A stretch of DNA of 64,000 nucleotides from Chlamydiae bacterium CG10_big_fil_rev_8_21_14_0_10_42_34. Lineage in GTDB: Bacteria; Chlamydiota; Chlamydiia; Chlamydiales; SM23-39. A model generated the notes under the pieces. That model had not been told where the DNA came from and did not search any database. It worked only from the letters and a program-made list of their open reading frames with translations. Of the stretch, positions 40,164 to 47,980 are shown one piece after another. Each line of letters begins with the position of its first letter. The stretch's first letter is position 1. Where the stretch lies: the NCBI GenBank assembly GCA_002773795.1, contig PFAD01000008.1, positions 540,070-604,069 on the forward strand. Reading direction: 5' to 3'. Made by a program: the position numbers and the translations under genes.

Positions 40164-40701
40164 TTATCGGTCTTCTCGAAATAGAGCATTTCTCTCGCTT
40201 CTAGATCTTCTACAAGCCACTGAAGTAGCGCACGTACGCTCCGCAAATTCTAGCTTTGCCGCAGGCAATTCATTTCCAGTTTTTTCGCAAATAAGGTGGA
40301 GTCGATCTGCTGCCCCTCCTAAAGGATAGATCTCGCATAAAAATGGAAGGGCTTCAATCCCAGAACTCTTTTTTTCAAGAAGCCGCATCACCTCAGCCTG
40401 ATATCCAATGATGCCTCCCATTTCCCGATAAAAGTCATCCACTTCAACAAGTTGTTTTATTAGCGCCCCCGGCATTTCACTGCTTATCGCAGCTAAGTTC
40501 TTAGGAAGTTGATCTATTGCGATGATTTGTTTCATTGCCTCTGCCTCTTTTCCAACCAATTGCGAAATGCAATTTTTCCATGGATATGCTGAGGCAAAAA
40601 AATCAATAACTCTTGAACAATGATTAAGGAACTCTTCCCGCTGATGGTTTGTCGCACCCTCTAATCATTTTAGCAAGTAGGTCAATCACAACAGATTCCA
40701 T
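40164..40701 (-). pseudogene. Frameshifted and 3'-truncated last gene of the island operon (weak resemblance to a nucleotide-sugar pyrophosphorylase N-terminus)
   Basis: The ATG at 40701 lies 1 nt after the MATE stop and reads MESVVIDLLAKMIRG… before stopping after 25 codons. The reading continues in another frame (…REEFLNHCSRVIDFF…LVGKEAEAMKQ…YPLGGAADRLHL…) and ends in a low-quality tail at 40164. The GG-x-x-x-RL motif is only suggestive. Confidence 0.35.
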
Positions 40702-40702
40702 C

Positions 40703-42073
40703 TCATAATGAATTCTCAGAAATAATTGGGATTGTGGATGGGTTGGTTGGTAGAGATTTCACAGTCCGATAAAATTTGATAACAAACGTAACAGACAAGA
40801 TAGCGAGCATAGCCATGAAAAACCACCAAATACATAGAGGGCTCACTCCAAATAGATAGACTCCGCAATAGCAACTCCCAACAAGTAGCAAATGAAGCAT
40901 AAGAGAAAAGCGAAAACACCAGCCCGAATATCCAAGGGAACGAAGGGCTGCTTTATAAAGAAATGTAGCCGCGTTCGCAAAAATATATAGGCATGTCGTC
41001 TGGAAGAAAACCTTAGAATATTTGAAAACTATTGCATGATCCATTTCATTATTATTGCCTCCCATAAAGGCCGTCGCCAATTTATTTGACGCAGTCCAAA
41101 AAATAATTGAGAAAATAAACATCAGAGCGAAGGTCATACGAACTGCGGCATGAAGACTTAGCACCGCCCCTTTTGGGTTCCTTTGTCCTAAATGGCGACT
41201 GTAAAGACTCATAACGGCACCATACATTCCCATAAGAGGTAAAAAGGCTATTTGATCCCAGCTAAATACTATTGAAATTGCCGTACTAACTTCTTTTCCA
41301 TAGAATACAAACATGTTTACAAAGCAGACAAAACAGAAACTGTTCGTGAATTTCTCCAGTCCCGCATAGGCGCCCTGTTTCAAAAATGCAGATAAATCGG
41401 ATCCATACCAAATCTCTTTCAAGGCAATCTTCTCCCAGCTTCTTTCAACAGTTTTGTGATAAATATATCCTAGATAAAAGAGAGACAAAAGATTAGCTAA
41501 GACGGTTCCCCATGCAGCCCCAGTAGCTCCAGAGAAAAGGTGAGCGCCCGATCCCAAGACAAAAAGATAGGTAAGCGGAATATTAGCGATCATTCCAATC
41601 AGGCTTGCATATAGGATTTCTCTTGAGCGATTCGTTCCTAAAAAATAACTCTCAATAACGGTGCGACAAAGGACTATACTTTGAGAAAATATGACTATCT
41701 GAAAATAATTATTTTCAATTACGCGATAATCCGTAGGATGTCCTAATAAAGCAAAATATGAGTCACTTACTGTACTTACAAGGATTAAAAGAGGAACAGA
41801 ACAAGTAGCGATCAAAAAACCTTGCCGAACAATAATATGACACGCTTTGTGATCATTTTGCCCATATCTCTTAGCTATGAGGGAAGTAGAGAAAAACAAA
41901 AGGTGAATAAAAAACAAAGAAAGACTTAAAGCTGTAAAGCCGCCTGTAGTCGCTGCAGAAGTGTACAGAGGATTTTTTAAAGAGAGAATATAGCGATCTG
42001 TAAGGAGCATCAATGTTTGAATTCCCTGGGACAGGATGAGTGGCAATCCTAATTTAATGATTTGAAAATTCAT
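40703..42073 (-). CDS. MATE family / MOP-superfamily exporter or flippase
   Basis: 456 aa with about 12 TM helices and a MATE-like N-terminus, MNFQIIKLGLPLILSQGIQTLMLLTDRYIL. It overlaps the upstream gene by 4 nt. Confidence 0.8.
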   Translation of the reverse strand: MNFQIIKLGLPLILSQGIQTLMLLTDRYILSLKNPLYTSAATTGGFTALSLSLFFIHLLFFSTSLIAKRYGQNDHKACHIIVRQGFLIATCSVPLLILVSTVSDSYFALLGHPTDYRVIENNYFQIVIFSQSIVLCRTVIESYFLGTNRSREILYASLIGMIANIPLTYLFVLGSGAHLFSGATGAAWGTVLANLLSLFYLGYIYHKTVERSWEKIALKEIWYGSDLSAFLKQGAYAGLEKFTNSFCFVCFVNMFVFYGKEVSTAISIVFSWDQIAFLPLMGMYGAVMSLYSRHLGQRNPKGAVLSLHAAVRMTFALMFIFSIIFWTASNKLATAFMGGNNNEMDHAIVFKYSKVFFQTTCLYIFANAATFLYKAALRSLGYSGWCFRFSLMLHLLLVGSCYCGVYLFGVSPLCIWWFFMAMLAILSVTFVIKFYRTVKSLPTNPSTIPIISENSL

Positions 42074-46036: not shown

Positions 46037-46503
46037 TGCACAGCATCCATTTTTAAGATATTTGCTAAATGTGGTTTTTCTAAGACGTAGTATTTGCTGA
46101 TAAATTCCAAGGTTTCTTTTTGAGAAGGAAAGGCAAGCAGACTCAGTGCTTCAGAGAAAGTGCACCACTGATACTGATCATGTTCGTTTGGAGAAAGTGT
46201 GAGAGGTTGTAAATAGTTCGCAAAGGCACAAAAATTGGCGCTGAATGCAATACGTTTTTTTAATTGATCATAAAACATTGTAACATCAACATTATAAATT
46301 TCCTTACATACCAAACCAGTTTCTTCAAAAATTTCCCGCTGTACTGCCAAACTTGCAGATTCTTCCGGATTTAACTTTCCAGTGACCATCTGCCAAATAC
46401 CGGGGAGATAGCTGCGCTGTGAACGTCGTAGAAGAAGATACAAAGGTTCTTTTTCAGCGTTAGGATCTACAATATATCCCGCTACAAAGTTCGGATTTGC
46501 CAT
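46033..46503 (-). CDS. NUDIX hydrolase
   Basis: It has the Nudix box GKLNPEESASLAVQREIFEETGL (G-x5-E-x7-REUxEExGU). Confidence 0.86.
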   Translation of the reverse strand: MANPNFVAGYIVDPNAEKEPLYLLLRRSQRSYLPGIWQMVTGKLNPEESASLAVQREIFEETGLVCKEIYNVDVTMFYDQLKKRIAFSANFCAFANYLQPLTLSPNEHDQYQWCTFSEALSLLAFPSQKETLEFISKYYVLEKPHLANILKMDAVQ

Positions 46504-47980
46504 AGGAATGCTCCTCTATTAAATTTTGATTTGTTAGTTTAAATTTTGATACTGGGGCCTCTCCGCGACGCTTTCGACACATGCTGATATACGCGTTCGT
46601 AACCATGTCAATCGTAAGCATTTGGGCCTGAAGGTTTGATCTCCCCTCTCTGCCATTCAGAAAATCTGACAAACATTCAGCCCTCGCATATTCATTATAT
46701 CCAATGAAATGGTTTGATGATTCGATTTGCTTGGGGAAAAGGTCGCTTCCCTTCACAATCTCATGAGGAAGACCTCCGATAATGTCACTATTTCTGAAAA
46801 TATGGATATCAAAATGTTCTAATCCTCCAGGCGCCTGGTGATCTATAGATTGATTGTTTCGTTCCTTAATTTCATATGCTTGATAGCTATGCACCTGAAT
46901 ATTCATCAGTGGTCCCATCTGCAAACTCAACGTTTCATGACGTACCCGACCATTCCCCTTATAATTATCAATAGGAAGATGTGTCCAAGCGCGACGAGTG
47001 AAACCGGATTGCAACAGATTTAAAGAGCAAGTAGTGACAACTTGAGATCCTCGAGAAAATTCAAATAAAGCCAACATATCGAGCTCACCCATATTTAAAT
47101 ATTTTTGATTGCGCCAAAGATCATAAAATGTTGAATAACCACCTTGTTTGAATGCACGCAAATAAAAAGATTCATCTAAGGCAAATAGTTGGTCATGGGG
47201 ACTGTAATGAGAGGAAGTGACAAGACAATCGGACGGTCTTTTCTCAGGAGAAAGTTGATCGTATGAGAGCAACAGATTTGCCAAGTCGATAAAATGGTAT
47301 CCGCTATGAAAAAGTTTGCCGTAGCCGTATTTATAGGGATGATTTTCTCGAGAGAAAAACTCATCTGGCATATTCAAACTGCCATCACAGTGAGTAATGT
47401 GAATATGAGAAACTGGAAGGGCATACTCATGAATTAATGTTCCTACCCTGTCGATTATCCATCGATATCGAGGGTCATAGCGCCGTTGGCATTGGACGAC
47501 TACCGGAGTATTATAGCTTTCAGCTAACGAAAGTAGATGATGGTATTCGGCTGATATTTTTCTTGCTTGTTCTTCATTATTGATTACATCTACTGGCGAA
47601 GTGATCGGTTTGTCAGTGAGGGTCGGGATCTGTTTAATAATAAGATATTGAAGGTATGCATAATGCGCTTTAGGCTCTGTACTAATAATAGCGTGAGAAA
47701 TCTGATGCGAAACGATCAATCGATCAAGATTTGATTGGACATAATCTGACAGAACTGTAGCATCCCGCTCTTCGTCCGGAATAAAAAAGAGTTCGGAAGC
47801 AAGACCTCTCTCTCTGACAAAAGCCTCAACATCTCTACGTTTAGATTCAATATCAATAATAAGAGCGGGGCTCAAATCAAATCGTTTAAGACCTGCTATA
47901 TAAATCCGTTTACAATGAGGACCTAGACCAATGAGAAGAACTTTCTGTTTCACGACATATCCAAAATAACTAGAAAACAA
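46460..47980 (-). CDS. Gfo/Idh/MocA-like NAD(P)-dependent oxidoreductase (first gene of island operon)
   Basis: It has the N-terminal Rossmann segment KVLLIGLGPH and a …ISTEPKAHYAYLQYLIIKQIPTLTDKPIT segment, resembling the E-K-P motif region of the family. The C-terminal region is long. The probable start is the GTG at 47953. The 3' end overlaps the NUDIX gene by 44 nt. Confidence 0.6.
   Translation of the reverse strand: MFSSYFGYVVKQKVLLIGLGPHCKRIYIAGLKRFDLSPALIIDIESKRRDVEAFVRERGLASELFFIPDEERDATVLSDYVQSNLDRLIVSHQISHAIISTEPKAHYAYLQYLIIKQIPTLTDKPITSPVDVINNEEQARKISAEYHHLLSLAESYNTPVVVQCQRRYDPRYRWIIDRVGTLIHEYALPVSHIHITHCDGSLNMPDEFFSRENHPYKYGYGKLFHSGYHFIDLANLLLSYDQLSPEKRPSDCLVTSSHYSPHDQLFALDESFYLRAFKQGGYSTFYDLWRNQKYLNMGELDMLALFEFSRGSQVVTTCSLNLLQSGFTRRAWTHLPIDNYKGNGRVRHETLSLQMGPLMNIQVHSYQAYEIKERNNQSIDHQAPGGLEHFDIHIFRNSDIIGGLPHEIVKGSDLFPKQIESSNHFIGYNEYARAECLSDFLNGREGRSNLQAQMLTIDMVTNAYISMCRKRRGEAPVSKFKLTNQNLIEEHSYGKSELCSGIYCRS

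What the first reader, a model, noticed from the sequence alone, without database searches (positions are those of the whole stretch)
40164..47980. Orphan operon of eight intact genes plus a decayed ninth: oxidoreductase, NUDIX, two GT2s, membrane-tagged Tmk paralogue, two alpha/beta-hydrolase-like proteins and a MATE/MOP exporter
All genes lie on the minus strand. Consecutive genes overlap by 1-44 nt (TAATG, ATGA and TAGTG junctions) or are separated by 1 nt, so they form one translationally coupled unit downstream of a very AT-rich region (47981-48120). I do not recognise this combination as a known pathway. It has a Gfo/Idh/MocA-like dehydrogenase, a Nudix hydrolase, a thymidylate-kinase-family protein, a plain GT2, a GT2-TPR fusion, a canonical alpha/beta hydrolase, a nucleophile-less alpha/beta-hydrolase-like protein and a MOP-superfamily transporter.
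One reading is synthesis and export of a nucleotide(dTDP?)-sugar-derived glycoconjugate or small molecule, with built-in nucleotide recycling (GT releases NDP, Nudix and Tmk recycle it). An alternative is modification of a nucleotide or nucleic acid. Either way this would be unusual cargo for a chlamydial genome.
Basis: inference. Interest (0 to 1): 0.72.

Follow-up and report, generated by a model that had tools for sequence, protein, structure and literature searches.

The report
Chlamydial nucleotide-glycoside biosynthetic islet at tRNA-Met
An 8.3-kb horizontally acquired islet in an environmental chlamydia carries a tightly packed operon, also found in other chlamydiae and in Streptomyces-type bacteria, that most likely makes and exports an unknown sugar-decorated nucleotide-derived small molecule.

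Summary
Eight intact, overlapping minus-strand genes (40703-47980) are followed by a decayed ninth. I identify the ninth as the first about 210 codons of a UGP3-like UDP-sugar pyrophosphorylase, which is intact in a 95%-identical relative.

The cassette lies between tRNA-Met and a 46-nt copy of that tRNA's 3' half, so it looks like an integrated islet.

It is not an orphan. The same gene set recurs collinearly in other chlamydiae (Parachlamydiaceae HS-T3 and several MAGs). It recurs rearranged in Streptomyces, Kitasatospora, Actinoplanes and an intracellular-type MAG.

Two modules emerge:
- Module A: a divergent Gfo/Idh/MocA-fold dehydrogenase plus Nudix. This is widespread (over 1,500 protein clusters, 282 species), often fused, and sits next to Tmk-like kinases, CYTH, MoaA-like radical-SAM enzymes and phosphatases.
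- Module B: GT2 (fused to cytidylate kinase outside chlamydiae), Tmk-like kinase, Ser-Asp-His hydrolase, SunS/ThuS-like GT2-TPR, a nucleophile-less hydrolase-like protein and an exporter. This is rare.

In related loci Nudix is replaced by DUF402 or histidine phosphatases, and MATE by MFS or a TLC nucleotide transporter. Best reading: an exported glycosylated nucleotide or nucleoside-derived metabolite. No characterised cluster matches, and the product is unknown.

The parts
39961..40033 (+). tRNA-Met (CAT), the intact gene at one edge of the islet (attL-like)
   Evidence: ARAGORN; Rfam tRNA, 69.9 bits
40154..40701 (-). g9 pseudogene: the 5' third of a UGP3-like UDP-sugar pyrophosphorylase (UDPGP + Hexapep_UGP3_C). 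It has two frameshifts and a deletion of about 29 aa, and is truncated after codon ~210 of 647.
   Evidence: The intact 647-aa gene follows the MATE gene in L172 (Pfam). blastn and tblastn to the window. Six-frame reading.
40703..42073 (-). g8, MATE-family efflux transporter (456 aa)
   Evidence: Pfam MatE 7e-27. TIGR00797 147.9 bits against a 147.4-bit cut-off, with no flippase family hit.
42070..42753 (-). g7, alpha/beta-hydrolase-like protein without a nucleophile (227 aa). It belongs to a very rare family.
   Evidence: Weak Abhydrolase_1 hit. Invariant Arg99-Gly100 at the nucleophile elbow in 5 orthologues. Only 42 representatives with E<=1e-3 among 1.84 billion.
42750..43889 (-). g6, GT2 (GT-A) + TPR glycosyltransferase of the SunS/ThuS/GmaR type (379 aa)
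   Evidence: Pfam. PDB sequence hits GmaR 1.5e-18 and SunS 3e-12. AF2 pLDDT 94. Foldseek top hits SunS/ThuS at about 1e-15, roughly 8 orders of magnitude ahead of the next fold. The DAD motif is invariant.
43876..44601 (-). g5, canonical alpha/beta hydrolase (241 aa)
   Evidence: Pfam. GxSxG Ser112, Asp193 and His218 are invariant in 8 orthologues.
44601..45266 (-). g4, divergent thymidylate-kinase-family P-loop NMP kinase with a hydrophobic N-terminal extension of about 20 aa (221 aa)
   Evidence: Pfam Thymidylate_kin 6e-17. TIGR00041 55 bits against an 83-bit cut-off. Alignments to solved Tmk structures keep the P-loop and DRY motif but lose the REPGGT and ASR motifs.
45266..46036 (-). g3, soluble GT2 glycosyltransferase (256 aa). 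Its orthologues outside chlamydiae are fused to an N-terminal cytidylate kinase.
   Evidence: Pfam; PDB. Cmk-GT2 fusions in L169, L171, L175 and L041.
46033..46503 (-). g2, Nudix hydrolase with an intact Nudix box (156 aa)
   Evidence: Pfam NUDIX 5e-16. Best sub-threshold NCBIfam and PDB relatives are NTP or dihydroneopterin-triphosphate pyrophosphatases. The box was read from the sequence.
46460..47953 (-). g1, enlarged and divergent Gfo/Idh/MocA-fold dehydrogenase (497 aa; 506 aa if it starts at TTG 47980). It belongs to a large uncharacterised family that is often fused to Nudix.
   Evidence: AF2 pLDDT 85. Foldseek to GFOR, DgpA and scyllo-inositol dehydrogenase at about 1e-16.
47981..48189 (-). 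AT-rich leader and putative promoter region, conserved at 95% with the L172 cassette
   Evidence: Sequence. The blastn block ends at 48189. Two weak sigma-70-like sites on the minus strand, not above chance.
48352..48399 (+). Partial copy of the 3' half of tRNA-Met (attR-like direct repeat)
   Evidence: the repeat finder D2 and D7. A 20-nt exact repeat, with 0 expected in shuffles. Alignment.

Best explanation
This is a horizontally acquired 8.3-kb islet at tRNA-Met. It carries a nine-gene biosynthetic operon (eight genes intact) that makes and exports a glycosylated, nucleotide- or nucleoside-derived small molecule.

Inferred steps:
- Module A. g1 is an NAD-type Gfo/Idh/MocA-fold dehydrogenase that oxidises the sugar moiety of a nucleotide, probably a nucleoside triphosphate. 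g2 (Nudix) removes pyrophosphate from that intermediate. This parallels Pur10 plus Pur7 in the puromycin and 3'-amino-3'-deoxyguanosine pathways.
- Module B. g4 (Tmk-like NMP kinase) handles the monophosphate form. g3 (GT2) and g6 (GT2-TPR) add sugars from a UDP-sugar. The operon's own UGP3-like pyrophosphorylase (g9) once supplied that donor and is now decayed. g5 is a Ser-Asp-His hydrolase and g7 is its catalytically altered paralogue; together they process or deprotect the intermediate.
- g8 (MATE) exports the product.

Shown: the gene families, folds, intact catalytic motifs, fusions, co-conservation and islet structure.

Inferred: the substrate (a nucleotide), the order of the steps, and that the product is a small molecule.
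For: 1. Operon structure and motifs.

2. g1 has the sugar-dehydrogenase fold. It has many invariant Arg/Lys/His residues. Many homologues are g1-Nudix fusions of about 650 aa (Pfam column).

3. Across 82 non-redundant g1 loci, a separate Nudix lies within 4 genes in 49 and g1 is long or fused in 32. Other recurrent neighbours all act on nucleotides or phosphoanhydrides: Tmk-like 18, MoaA-like (GTP-utilising type) radical SAM 8, CYTH 7, plus His_Phos_1 and HAD phosphatases.

4. Minimal chlamydial versions exist: g1-Nudix-Tmk-MATE in Rhabdochlamydiaceae L014, and g1-Nudix-Tmk in L010.

5. Searching from g6 instead, every context examined carries Tmk-like, g5 and g7 genes. This holds for L011, L012, L013, L041, L072, L169-L172, L174 and L175.

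6. Non-orthologous replacements keep the same chemistry. Nudix is replaced by DUF402 or His_Phos_1. MATE is replaced by MFS or a TLC ATP/ADP-type nucleotide transporter. A GH1 beta-glucosidase is added in L041.

7. g3 is fused to cytidylate kinase in all four non-chlamydial loci that have it.

8. An intact UDPGP-family gene follows the MATE gene in L172.

9. Literature precedent: a Gfo/Idh/MocA-like NTP 3'-dehydrogenase (Pur10/AdgB), a Nudix (Pur7/AdgD) and an exporter (PMC11641026; PMC9239236).
Against: - No biochemical data exist for any member.
- g1 could not be compared with Pur10/AdgB sequences. It is only weakly similar to the GFO_IDH_MocA Pfam model (20 bits, below the cut-off).
- No aminotransferase or phosphatase lies in the islet, so it is not a puromycin- or ADG-type pathway.
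- g6's closest structures are peptide glycosyltransferases, which points to a peptide or protein acceptor instead.
- Secondary-metabolite sugar tailoring in actinomycetes normally uses GT1 enzymes, not GT2.
- Several Module-B clusters lack g1 (L169, L171, L175), so the two modules may make separable products.
- g1+Nudix next to housekeeping genes in Saccharibacteria could be a primary-metabolism function.
Confidence: 0.45

Rival explanations
1. This is a peptide or protein glycosylation system. g6 is a SunS/ThuS/GmaR-type GT2-TPR that glycosylates a peptide or protein, and g3 extends the glycan. The nucleotide enzymes make or recycle the donor, and the hydrolases process the substrate.
For: - g6's best solved relatives by sequence are GmaR (1.5e-18) and SunS (3e-12).
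- Its best relatives by fold are SunS and ThuS, at about 1e-15 over roughly 350 aligned columns that include the helical domain.
- The TPR domain is highly conserved.
- Chlamydial g1 proteins carry a short C-terminal tail with two Cys residues. This is only a curiosity.
Against: - There is no precursor-peptide ORF in or beside the operon, in the window or in HS-T3.
- There is no peptidase-ABC exporter and no thiol-disulfide oxidoreductase.
- The conserved partners are NMP kinases, nucleotide phosphatases and small-molecule or nucleotide transporters.
- The GT2 is fused to a cytidylate kinase.
Confidence: 0.2
2. The operon builds a cell-envelope glycoconjugate or exopolysaccharide (O-antigen, teichoic-acid or EPS type). 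The MATE/MOP protein acts as a flippase, and Nudix and Tmk recycle the released nucleotides.
For: - There are two GT2 genes and, ancestrally, a UDP-sugar pyrophosphorylase.
- g3's best NCBIfam hit is EpsD, but at 119 bits against a 370-bit cut-off.
- The wider window holds other glycan genes: GT10, DegT, GT2, GNAT and a methyltransferase.
Against: - There is no polyprenyl-phosphate priming transferase, Wzx/Wzy, chain-length regulator or ABC polysaccharide exporter.
- Both GTs are soluble GT-A proteins.
- g8 matches only MatE/MATE efflux.
- The same cassette occurs in chlamydiae and in actinomycetes, which have unrelated envelopes.
- The exporter is swapped for MFS or a TLC nucleotide transporter.
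- The neighbouring glycan genes lie outside the islet and are not co-conserved with it.
Confidence: 0.12
3. The operon supports nucleic-acid hypermodification, with T4-like logic. Nudix makes (d)NMP from (d)NTP, g1 modifies it, and the Tmk-like kinase re-phosphorylates it for incorporation. The GT2s then glycosylate the DNA or RNA.
For: The combination of NTP pyrophosphatase, dNMP-kinase-like enzyme and glycosyltransferases resembles phage hydroxymethyl-dC or hydroxymethyl-dU pathways. That resemblance rests on established knowledge and was not tested here. PADLOC gave weak hits of g2 and g4 to candidate defence proteins PDC-S07 and PDC-M51B.
Against: - Exporters are conserved in nearly every version.
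- There is no base-modifying enzyme (hydroxymethylase or thymidylate-synthase-like), polymerase or DNA-binding component.
- A Gfo/Idh/MocA fold acts on sugar hydroxyls, not on bases.
- No phage genes lie nearby.
Confidence: 0.07
4. This is not one pathway. g1+Nudix(+Tmk) is a nucleotide-pool sanitation or salvage module of host-dependent bacteria. It has merely become adjacent to an unrelated glycosylation module.
For: - g1+Nudix occurs alone beside housekeeping genes in Saccharibacteria and in gut Firmicutes with small genomes.
- Module B occurs without g1 in L169, L171 and L175.
- In L173 and L015, g1 stands alone.
Against: - In chlamydiae the two modules are translationally coupled by overlaps of 1-44 nt and move together as one cassette into different chromosomal sites.
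- The modules co-occur again, rearranged, in Streptomyces antioxidans, Kitasatospora and L041.
Confidence: 0.12

Closest known systems
Puromycin, A201A, cystocin and 3'-amino-3'-deoxyguanosine (adgA-E) pathways: Pur10/AdgB NAD-dependent NTP 3'-dehydrogenase, Pur7/AdgD Nudix, Pur4 aminotransferase, Pur3 phosphatase and an exporter (PMC11641026, PMC9239236)
   Same: A dehydrogenase of the Gfo/Idh/MocA (RifL-like) type is paired with a Nudix hydrolase and an efflux pump in one operon, with a nucleotide as starting material. Related loci add phosphatases (His_Phos_1, HAD).
   Different: The islet has no PLP aminotransferase or monophosphatase. g1 is about 130 aa larger and hardly recognised by the GFO_IDH_MocA model. 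The operon has two GT2s, a Tmk-like kinase and two alpha/beta-fold proteins that the pur and adg clusters lack. Sequence relatedness of g1 to Pur10 could not be tested.
Glycocin S-glycosyltransferases SunS/ThuS (PDB 7MSN, 7MSP, 7MSK) and the Listeria flagellin O-GlcNAc transferase GmaR
   Same: g6 has the same GT-A plus helical/TPR two-domain architecture, and these are its best sequence and fold matches. The DxD motif is present.
   Different: Identity is only 17-21%. There is no precursor peptide, SunT-type exporter or Bdb oxidoreductase, and no flagellar context. The g6 orthogroup has its own invariant motifs (LNHFGHCR, RYNFF) and a fixed set of nucleotide-enzyme partners.
Cordycepin cluster Cns1-Cns4 of Cordyceps (from my own knowledge, not checked here)
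   Same: The same logic as the minimal chlamydial version g1-g2-g4-g8: an oxidoreductase, a metal-dependent phosphohydrolase, a nucleotide kinase and a transporter yield an exported sugar-modified nucleoside.
   Different: It is fungal, with unrelated protein families (HD-domain rather than Nudix, ABC rather than MATE) and no glycosyltransferases.
Canonical thymidylate kinase (TIGR00041; PDB 3HJN, 2PBR)
   Same: g4 keeps the GxDGxGKST P-loop, the DRY motif and the overall length.
   Different: It scores below the equivalog cut-off (55 against 83 bits). It lacks the REPGGT and (A)SR dTMP-phosphate-binding motifs and has an altered LID. In chlamydial copies it carries a hydrophobic N-terminal extension of about 20 aa.
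T4-type hydroxymethyl-dC glucosylation pathway (dCTPase, dNMP kinase, DNA glucosyltransferases; from my own knowledge)
   Same: It combines an NTP pyrophosphatase, an NMP kinase and glycosyltransferases.
   Different: The operon has no hydroxymethylase and no phage context, and exporters are conserved. The GTs belong to different families.

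Membership tests
Pur10/Pur7-type 3'-modified nucleoside pathway (puromycin, ADG) | NAD-dependent NTP 3'-dehydrogenase of the Gfo/Idh/MocA type (Pur10/AdgB) | tested here: inconclusive
   g1 has the Gfo/Idh/MocA fold (Foldseek about 1e-16). 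It has an acidic residue after strand 2 (DIES) and a DKP in place of EKP. No Pur10 or AdgB sequence was available to compare. Pfam GFO_IDH_MocA gives only 20 bits against a 24-bit cut-off.
Pur10/Pur7-type 3'-modified nucleoside pathway (puromycin, ADG) | Nudix NTP pyrophosphohydrolase encoded next to the dehydrogenase | tested here: met
   g2 overlaps g1 by 44 nt and has an intact Nudix box. g1-Nudix fusions are common.
Pur10/Pur7-type 3'-modified nucleoside pathway (puromycin, ADG) | PLP aminotransferase (Pur4/AdgC) and monophosphatase (Pur3/AdgE) in the cluster | tested here: not met
   Neither is present among g1-g9. The DegT gene at 53383-54552 lies outside the islet and is not co-conserved. 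Phosphatases appear only in some related loci.
Glycocin (SunS/ThuS) RiPP systems | GT-A + TPR-like peptide glycosyltransferase | tested here: met
   (fold and sequence, 17-21% identity).
Glycocin (SunS/ThuS) RiPP systems | Adjacent precursor peptide, peptidase-ABC exporter and thiol-disulfide oxidoreductases | tested here: not met
   No candidate small ORF on the operon strand. No such families among the operon genes.
Wzx/Wzy- or ABC-dependent surface polysaccharide / O-antigen / teichoic-acid cluster | Priming polyprenyl-phosphate transferase, flippase or ABC exporter, and polymerase or ligase | tested here: not met
   None is present. g8 matches only MatE/TIGR00797. All EPS, O-antigen and teichoic equivalog hits of g3 and g6 are far below their cut-offs.
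dTMP kinase (TIGR00041 equivalog) | Score above the curated cut-off and conserved dTMP-binding motifs | tested here: not met
   55.1 bits against an 83.25-bit cut-off. The P-loop and DRY motif are kept, but REPGGT and ASR are lost.
MATE efflux transporter (TIGR00797) | Score at or above the curated cut-off | tested here: met
   147.9 bits against a 147.4-bit cut-off. This is marginal, but the two MatE repeats are present in Pfam.
tRNA-targeted integrated genomic islet | Direct repeat of the tRNA 3' end flanking the insert | tested here: met
   A 20-nt exact repeat plus about 26 nt of degenerate repeat, 8362 nt apart, with 0 expected by chance.
tRNA-targeted integrated genomic islet | Integrase or recombinase gene inside the element | tested here: not met
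   No such gene lies between 40034 and 48351. The edge next to the tRNA holds the truncated UDPGP pseudogene.
tRNA-targeted integrated genomic islet | Same cassette in different chromosomal contexts in relatives | tested here: met
   L172 is 95% identical over 40154-48189 only, and its flanks differ. HS-T3 and L174 have other flanks.

The most novel reading that the evidence does not exclude
The g1 family, usually partnered with or fused to Nudix, would be a previously unrecognised class of nucleotide-sugar-ring oxidoreductases. It would start a new route to modified nucleotides that is widespread in host-associated bacteria (Saccharibacteria, gut Firmicutes, Chlamydiae). In chlamydiae and some actinomycetes this route would be coupled to a rare five-gene glycosylation module to give a new class of exported glycosylated pyrimidine-nucleotide metabolite. 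That would be the first specialised nucleotide natural product of an obligate intracellular bacterium, possibly aimed at the eukaryotic host or at competitors inside it.
Probability: 0.3. Interest if true: 0.85.

Novelty: new variant of a known kind. Interest (0 to 1): 0.64.

Why it matters
Environmental chlamydiae are obligate intracellular bacteria and are not known for specialised metabolism. A mobile, exported-metabolite cassette shared with Streptomyces-type bacteria would give a concrete, clonable candidate (about 8 kb, eight or nine genes) for a chlamydial small molecule that acts on the host or on competitors.

Separately, the dehydrogenase-Nudix pair defines a large enzyme family that no curated model describes. 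It has over 1,500 protein clusters at 90% identity and occurs in 282 species representatives. It is frequent in Saccharibacteria and gut Firmicutes. Assigning its reaction would annotate thousands of genes and could reveal a new nucleotide modification.

Tried and rejected
- Metagenome scan with the g6 alignment. The patterns were too generic (W[VI]L[FY]LDAD). It returned only distant GT2-TPR proteins (34% identity or less over full-length matches), with none of the partner genes, so it says nothing about co-occurrence.
- Rfam on the window and 11 related loci. No riboswitch lies upstream of the operon or of g1 homologues. Only tRNAs and an unrelated glmS element were found.
- Promoter and terminator scan. 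Counts were at or below the shuffle expectation, so transcript boundaries remain inferred from the gene overlaps.
- PADLOC. It gave only weak hits of g2 and g4 to uncharacterised candidate families, with no defence-system architecture. I rejected the defence reading.
- Literature searches for this gene combination. No paper describes it. Only the Pur10/Pur7 precedent emerged.
- Search for precursor peptides. None found.
- g3 homologue search. The word-indexed search reached only chlamydia-type stand-alone copies and missed the Cmk-GT2 fusions. The fusion frequency therefore rests on four loci seen through gene context.
- Viperin-like reading of the small radical-SAM neighbour of g1 in Clostridia. 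I rejected it because NCBIfam places that protein nearest MoaA.
- g9 as an integrase remnant. I rejected it because g9 is a truncated UDPGP gene.
- Base composition as evidence of horizontal transfer. Islet GC is 0.400 against 0.425 for the rest of the window, which is too small a difference to use.

Full report
OBSERVATION.
The ORF list shows eight consecutive minus-strand genes between 40703 and 47980.

- g1 (46460-47953/47980): weak GFO_IDH_MocA
- g2 (46033-46503): Nudix
- g3 (45266-46036): GT2
- g4 (44601-45266): thymidylate-kinase family, 55 bits against the 83-bit dTMP-kinase cut-off
- g5 (43876-44601): alpha/beta hydrolase
- g6 (42750-43889): GT2 + TPR
- g7 (42070-42753): barely detectable Abhydrolase_1
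- g8 (40703-42073): MatE, which just reaches the TIGR00797 MATE cut-off

Every junction is an overlap of 1-44 nt: GTGA, TAATG, TAGTG, ATGA twice, 14 nt and 44 nt. The homologue alignment and gene calls favour GTG 47953 as the g1 start.

THE NINTH GENE.
The 131-aa ORF at 40164-40559 has no family hit even at permissive thresholds.

A contig 95% identical to the window (L172) carries an intact 647-aa gene directly after the MATE gene. That gene has UDPGP and Hexapep_UGP3_C domains. tblastn of this protein matches window 40701-40154 over codons 1-210 only. The match is in three frame-shifted pieces with a deletion of about 29 aa.

The ninth gene is therefore a truncated UGP3-like UDP-sugar pyrophosphorylase pseudogene. 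The ancestral cassette made its own sugar donor.

ORGANISM AND ISLET.
g1 is 100% identical to a protein of 'Chlamydiae bacterium CG10_big_fil_rev_8_21_14_0_10_42_34'.

The operon lies between tRNA-Met (39961-40033) and a copy of that tRNA's 3' half at 48352-48399. The copy is 20 nt exact, with a further 26 nt or so degenerate. None is expected by chance.

DNA similarity to L172 covers 40154-48189 and stops there. The L172 flanks are unrelated: an RHS-repeat gene on one side and a convergent 147-aa Nudix on the other. HS-T3 and L174 carry the cassette in yet other contexts. Two relatives keep only g1 next to the convergent Nudix.

There is no integrase. I read this as an old, degraded tRNA-targeted islet. 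This is an inference.

THE PROTEINS.
- g1. It has no PDB sequence relative. A confident model (pLDDT 85) has the Gfo/Idh/MocA fold. Its nearest structures are glucose-fructose oxidoreductase, DgpA and scyllo-inositol dehydrogenase, at E about 1e-16 and 11-14% identity. The family is sharply conserved, with motifs STEPKAH, DKPIT, QCQRR, HCDGMWNMPDEFxxRENHPYKYGYGKLFHSGYHFIDL and NGRVRHE. Many Arg/Lys/His residues are invariant.
- g2. It has a complete Nudix box. Its best sub-threshold relatives are (d)NTP or dihydroneopterin-triphosphate pyrophosphatases.
- g4. It keeps the Tmk P-loop and DRY motif but loses the dTMP-phosphate-binding motifs.
- g5. Its Ser-Asp-His triad is invariant in eight orthologues.
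- g7. It has an invariant Arg-Gly at the nucleophile position. Only 42 relatives exist among 1.84 billion representatives.
- g6. The model is very confident (pLDDT 94). Its best sequence matches are GmaR and SunS, and its best fold matches are SunS and ThuS. These lie about eight orders of magnitude ahead of other GT-A folds.

CO-CONSERVATION.
The cassette is not an orphan.

Starting from g1:
- More than 1,587 homologous clusters exist.
- There are 282 hits among GTDB species representatives: Chlamydiales, Saccharibacteria, Clostridia, Bacilli, Paenibacillus, Streptomyces, Mycobacterium and Anaerolineae.
- Many homologues are g1-Nudix fusions.
- In 82 non-redundant loci, a separate Nudix lies within four genes in 49, and g1 is long or fused in 32. 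Tmk-like genes occur in 18, LysR regulators in 25, MoaA-like radical-SAM genes in 8 and CYTH in 7.

The full g1-g8 order recurs in L011, HS-T3 (L012), L013 (partial) and L172. g1-g7 recurs in L174. Rhabdochlamydiaceae L014 has only g1-g2-g4-g8.

Starting from g6:
- The orthogroup is small, with 46 clusters before the E-value drops from 1e-42 to 1e-28.
- It includes Ktedonobacterales, three Streptomyces species, Kitasatospora and Actinoplanes.
- Every context examined carries the Tmk-like gene, g5 and g7, usually in the order g7-g4-g3-g5-g6.
- Outside chlamydiae, g3 is fused to a cytidylate kinase in all four loci that have it.

Functional replacements occur:
- DUF402 or His_Phos_1 replaces Nudix.
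- MFS replaces MATE.
- In L041 a TLC ATP/ADP-type nucleotide transporter is present, plus a GH1 beta-glucosidase.

g1 is present in some of these clusters (S. antioxidans, Kitasatospora, L041) and absent in others.

INTERPRETATION.
Two modules are joined.

- Module A is g1 plus Nudix, with or without a kinase. It is consistently embedded among enzymes that act on nucleoside phosphates. Its nearest described analogue is Pur10 (NAD-dependent ATP 3'-dehydrogenase) plus Pur7 (Nudix) plus an exporter, in the puromycin and 3'-amino-3'-deoxyguanosine pathways.
- Module B comprises two GT2s, one or more NMP kinases, a hydrolase pair and an exporter. It ties glycosyl transfer physically to pyrimidine-nucleotide kinases.

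Several features point to a soluble glycosylated nucleotide- or nucleoside-derived metabolite that is exported:
- the exporters are of small-molecule or nucleotide type;
- no lipid-carrier machinery is present;
- a phosphatase or pyrophosphatase is always present;
- one variant carries a glucosidase.

I put this reading at about 0.45. The step order and the substrate are inferred.

The main rival, at about 0.2, is peptide or protein glycosylation, because g6 is of the SunS/ThuS type. Against it, no precursor peptide, SunT-type exporter or oxidoreductases are present.

The other readings are weaker:
- A surface-polysaccharide reading (0.12) lacks every defining component.
- A T4-like nucleic-acid modification reading (0.07) does not explain the exporters.
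- Two unrelated adjacent modules (0.12) is contradicted by the translational coupling and the repeated co-occurrence.

COMPARISON AND NOVELTY.
No curated family or characterised cluster covers the set. All equivalog scores are far below their cut-offs, and six literature searches found nothing.

It works most like a nucleoside-antibiotic-type cluster. However, it fails the membership test for the Pur/Adg pathway (no aminotransferase or phosphatase) and for glycocin systems.

I classify it as a new variant of a known kind. Its first enzyme belongs to a large uncharacterised family.

Noticed in passing
window 48352-48399 and 39961-40033: A 46-nt copy of the 3' half of tRNA-Met (20 nt exact) lies 8.36 kb from the intact tRNA-Met and brackets the operon. 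This is the signature of a tRNA-integrated islet, but no integrase is present.
   Followed up: yes
window 48604-49104 (+): A short-chain dehydrogenase gene is broken into two ORFs of 82 and 83 aa. Only the first still hits adh_short. It is probably a pseudogene just outside the islet edge.
   Followed up: partly
window 49260-54552: A second sugar-modification cluster lies outside the islet. It has a 595-aa multi-pass membrane protein with no Pfam family, a methyltransferase, a GNAT acetyltransferase, a 324-aa GT2 and a DegT/ArnB-type aminotransferase. The layout is reminiscent of amino-sugar (Arn-like) lipid A or glycan modification. It is not co-conserved with the operon in other loci.
   Followed up: partly
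window 36324-39806: A GT10 (fucosyltransferase-family) gene, a DUF1207 protein and an MFS transporter lie just beyond tRNA-Met. A GT10 gene is unusual in bacteria.
   Followed up: no
window 54878-63309 and 34237-36381: Three large ORFs (1843, 959 and 714 aa) have no Pfam family at all.
   Followed up: no
window 46460-46520 (C-terminus of g1); L012 and P0009 equivalents: Chlamydial g1 proteins share a C-terminal tail that other g1 homologues lack. It reads EEHxxxxSELCxxxxC, with two conserved cysteines, and is encoded in the 44-nt overlap with g2.
   Followed up: no
L008, L023-L029, L036-L043 (Saccharibacteria); L030, L031, L035, L045, L057, L065 (Clostridia): In Saccharibacteria, g1 is fused to Nudix (650-666 aa) and is followed by CYTH or a GNAT. 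In several Clostridia the set is LysR, a MoaA-like radical SAM, CYTH, g1 and Nudix, with or without Tmk-like. In gut Bacilli, g1 carries a different C-terminal extension of about 130 aa and follows LysR and Nudix.
   Followed up: partly
L006, L017, L018, L020, L022: g1 also sits in a different conserved cluster in Paenibacillus humicus, Ectobacillus antri and gut Firmicutes. That cluster has a radical SAM, carrier proteins, AMP-binding and PaaK-like ligases, an ATP-grasp enzyme, a HAD phosphatase and a Nudix. It looks like an acylated or peptidyl nucleoside cluster.
   Followed up: partly
L173 10001-12022 and L015 7100-9145: Close relatives (g1 86% identical) have g1 alone, followed by a convergent 147-aa Nudix. 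The same convergent Nudix follows the nine-gene cassette in L172. This suggests that g2-g9 were either deleted or inserted between the same two genes.
   Followed up: partly
L169, L170, L175: Non-chlamydial Module-B clusters share further conserved partners: NTP_transf_5 (an uncharacterised nucleotidyltransferase), Methyltransf_24, a luciferase-like monooxygenase, and unknown proteins of about 320 and 370 aa.
   Followed up: no
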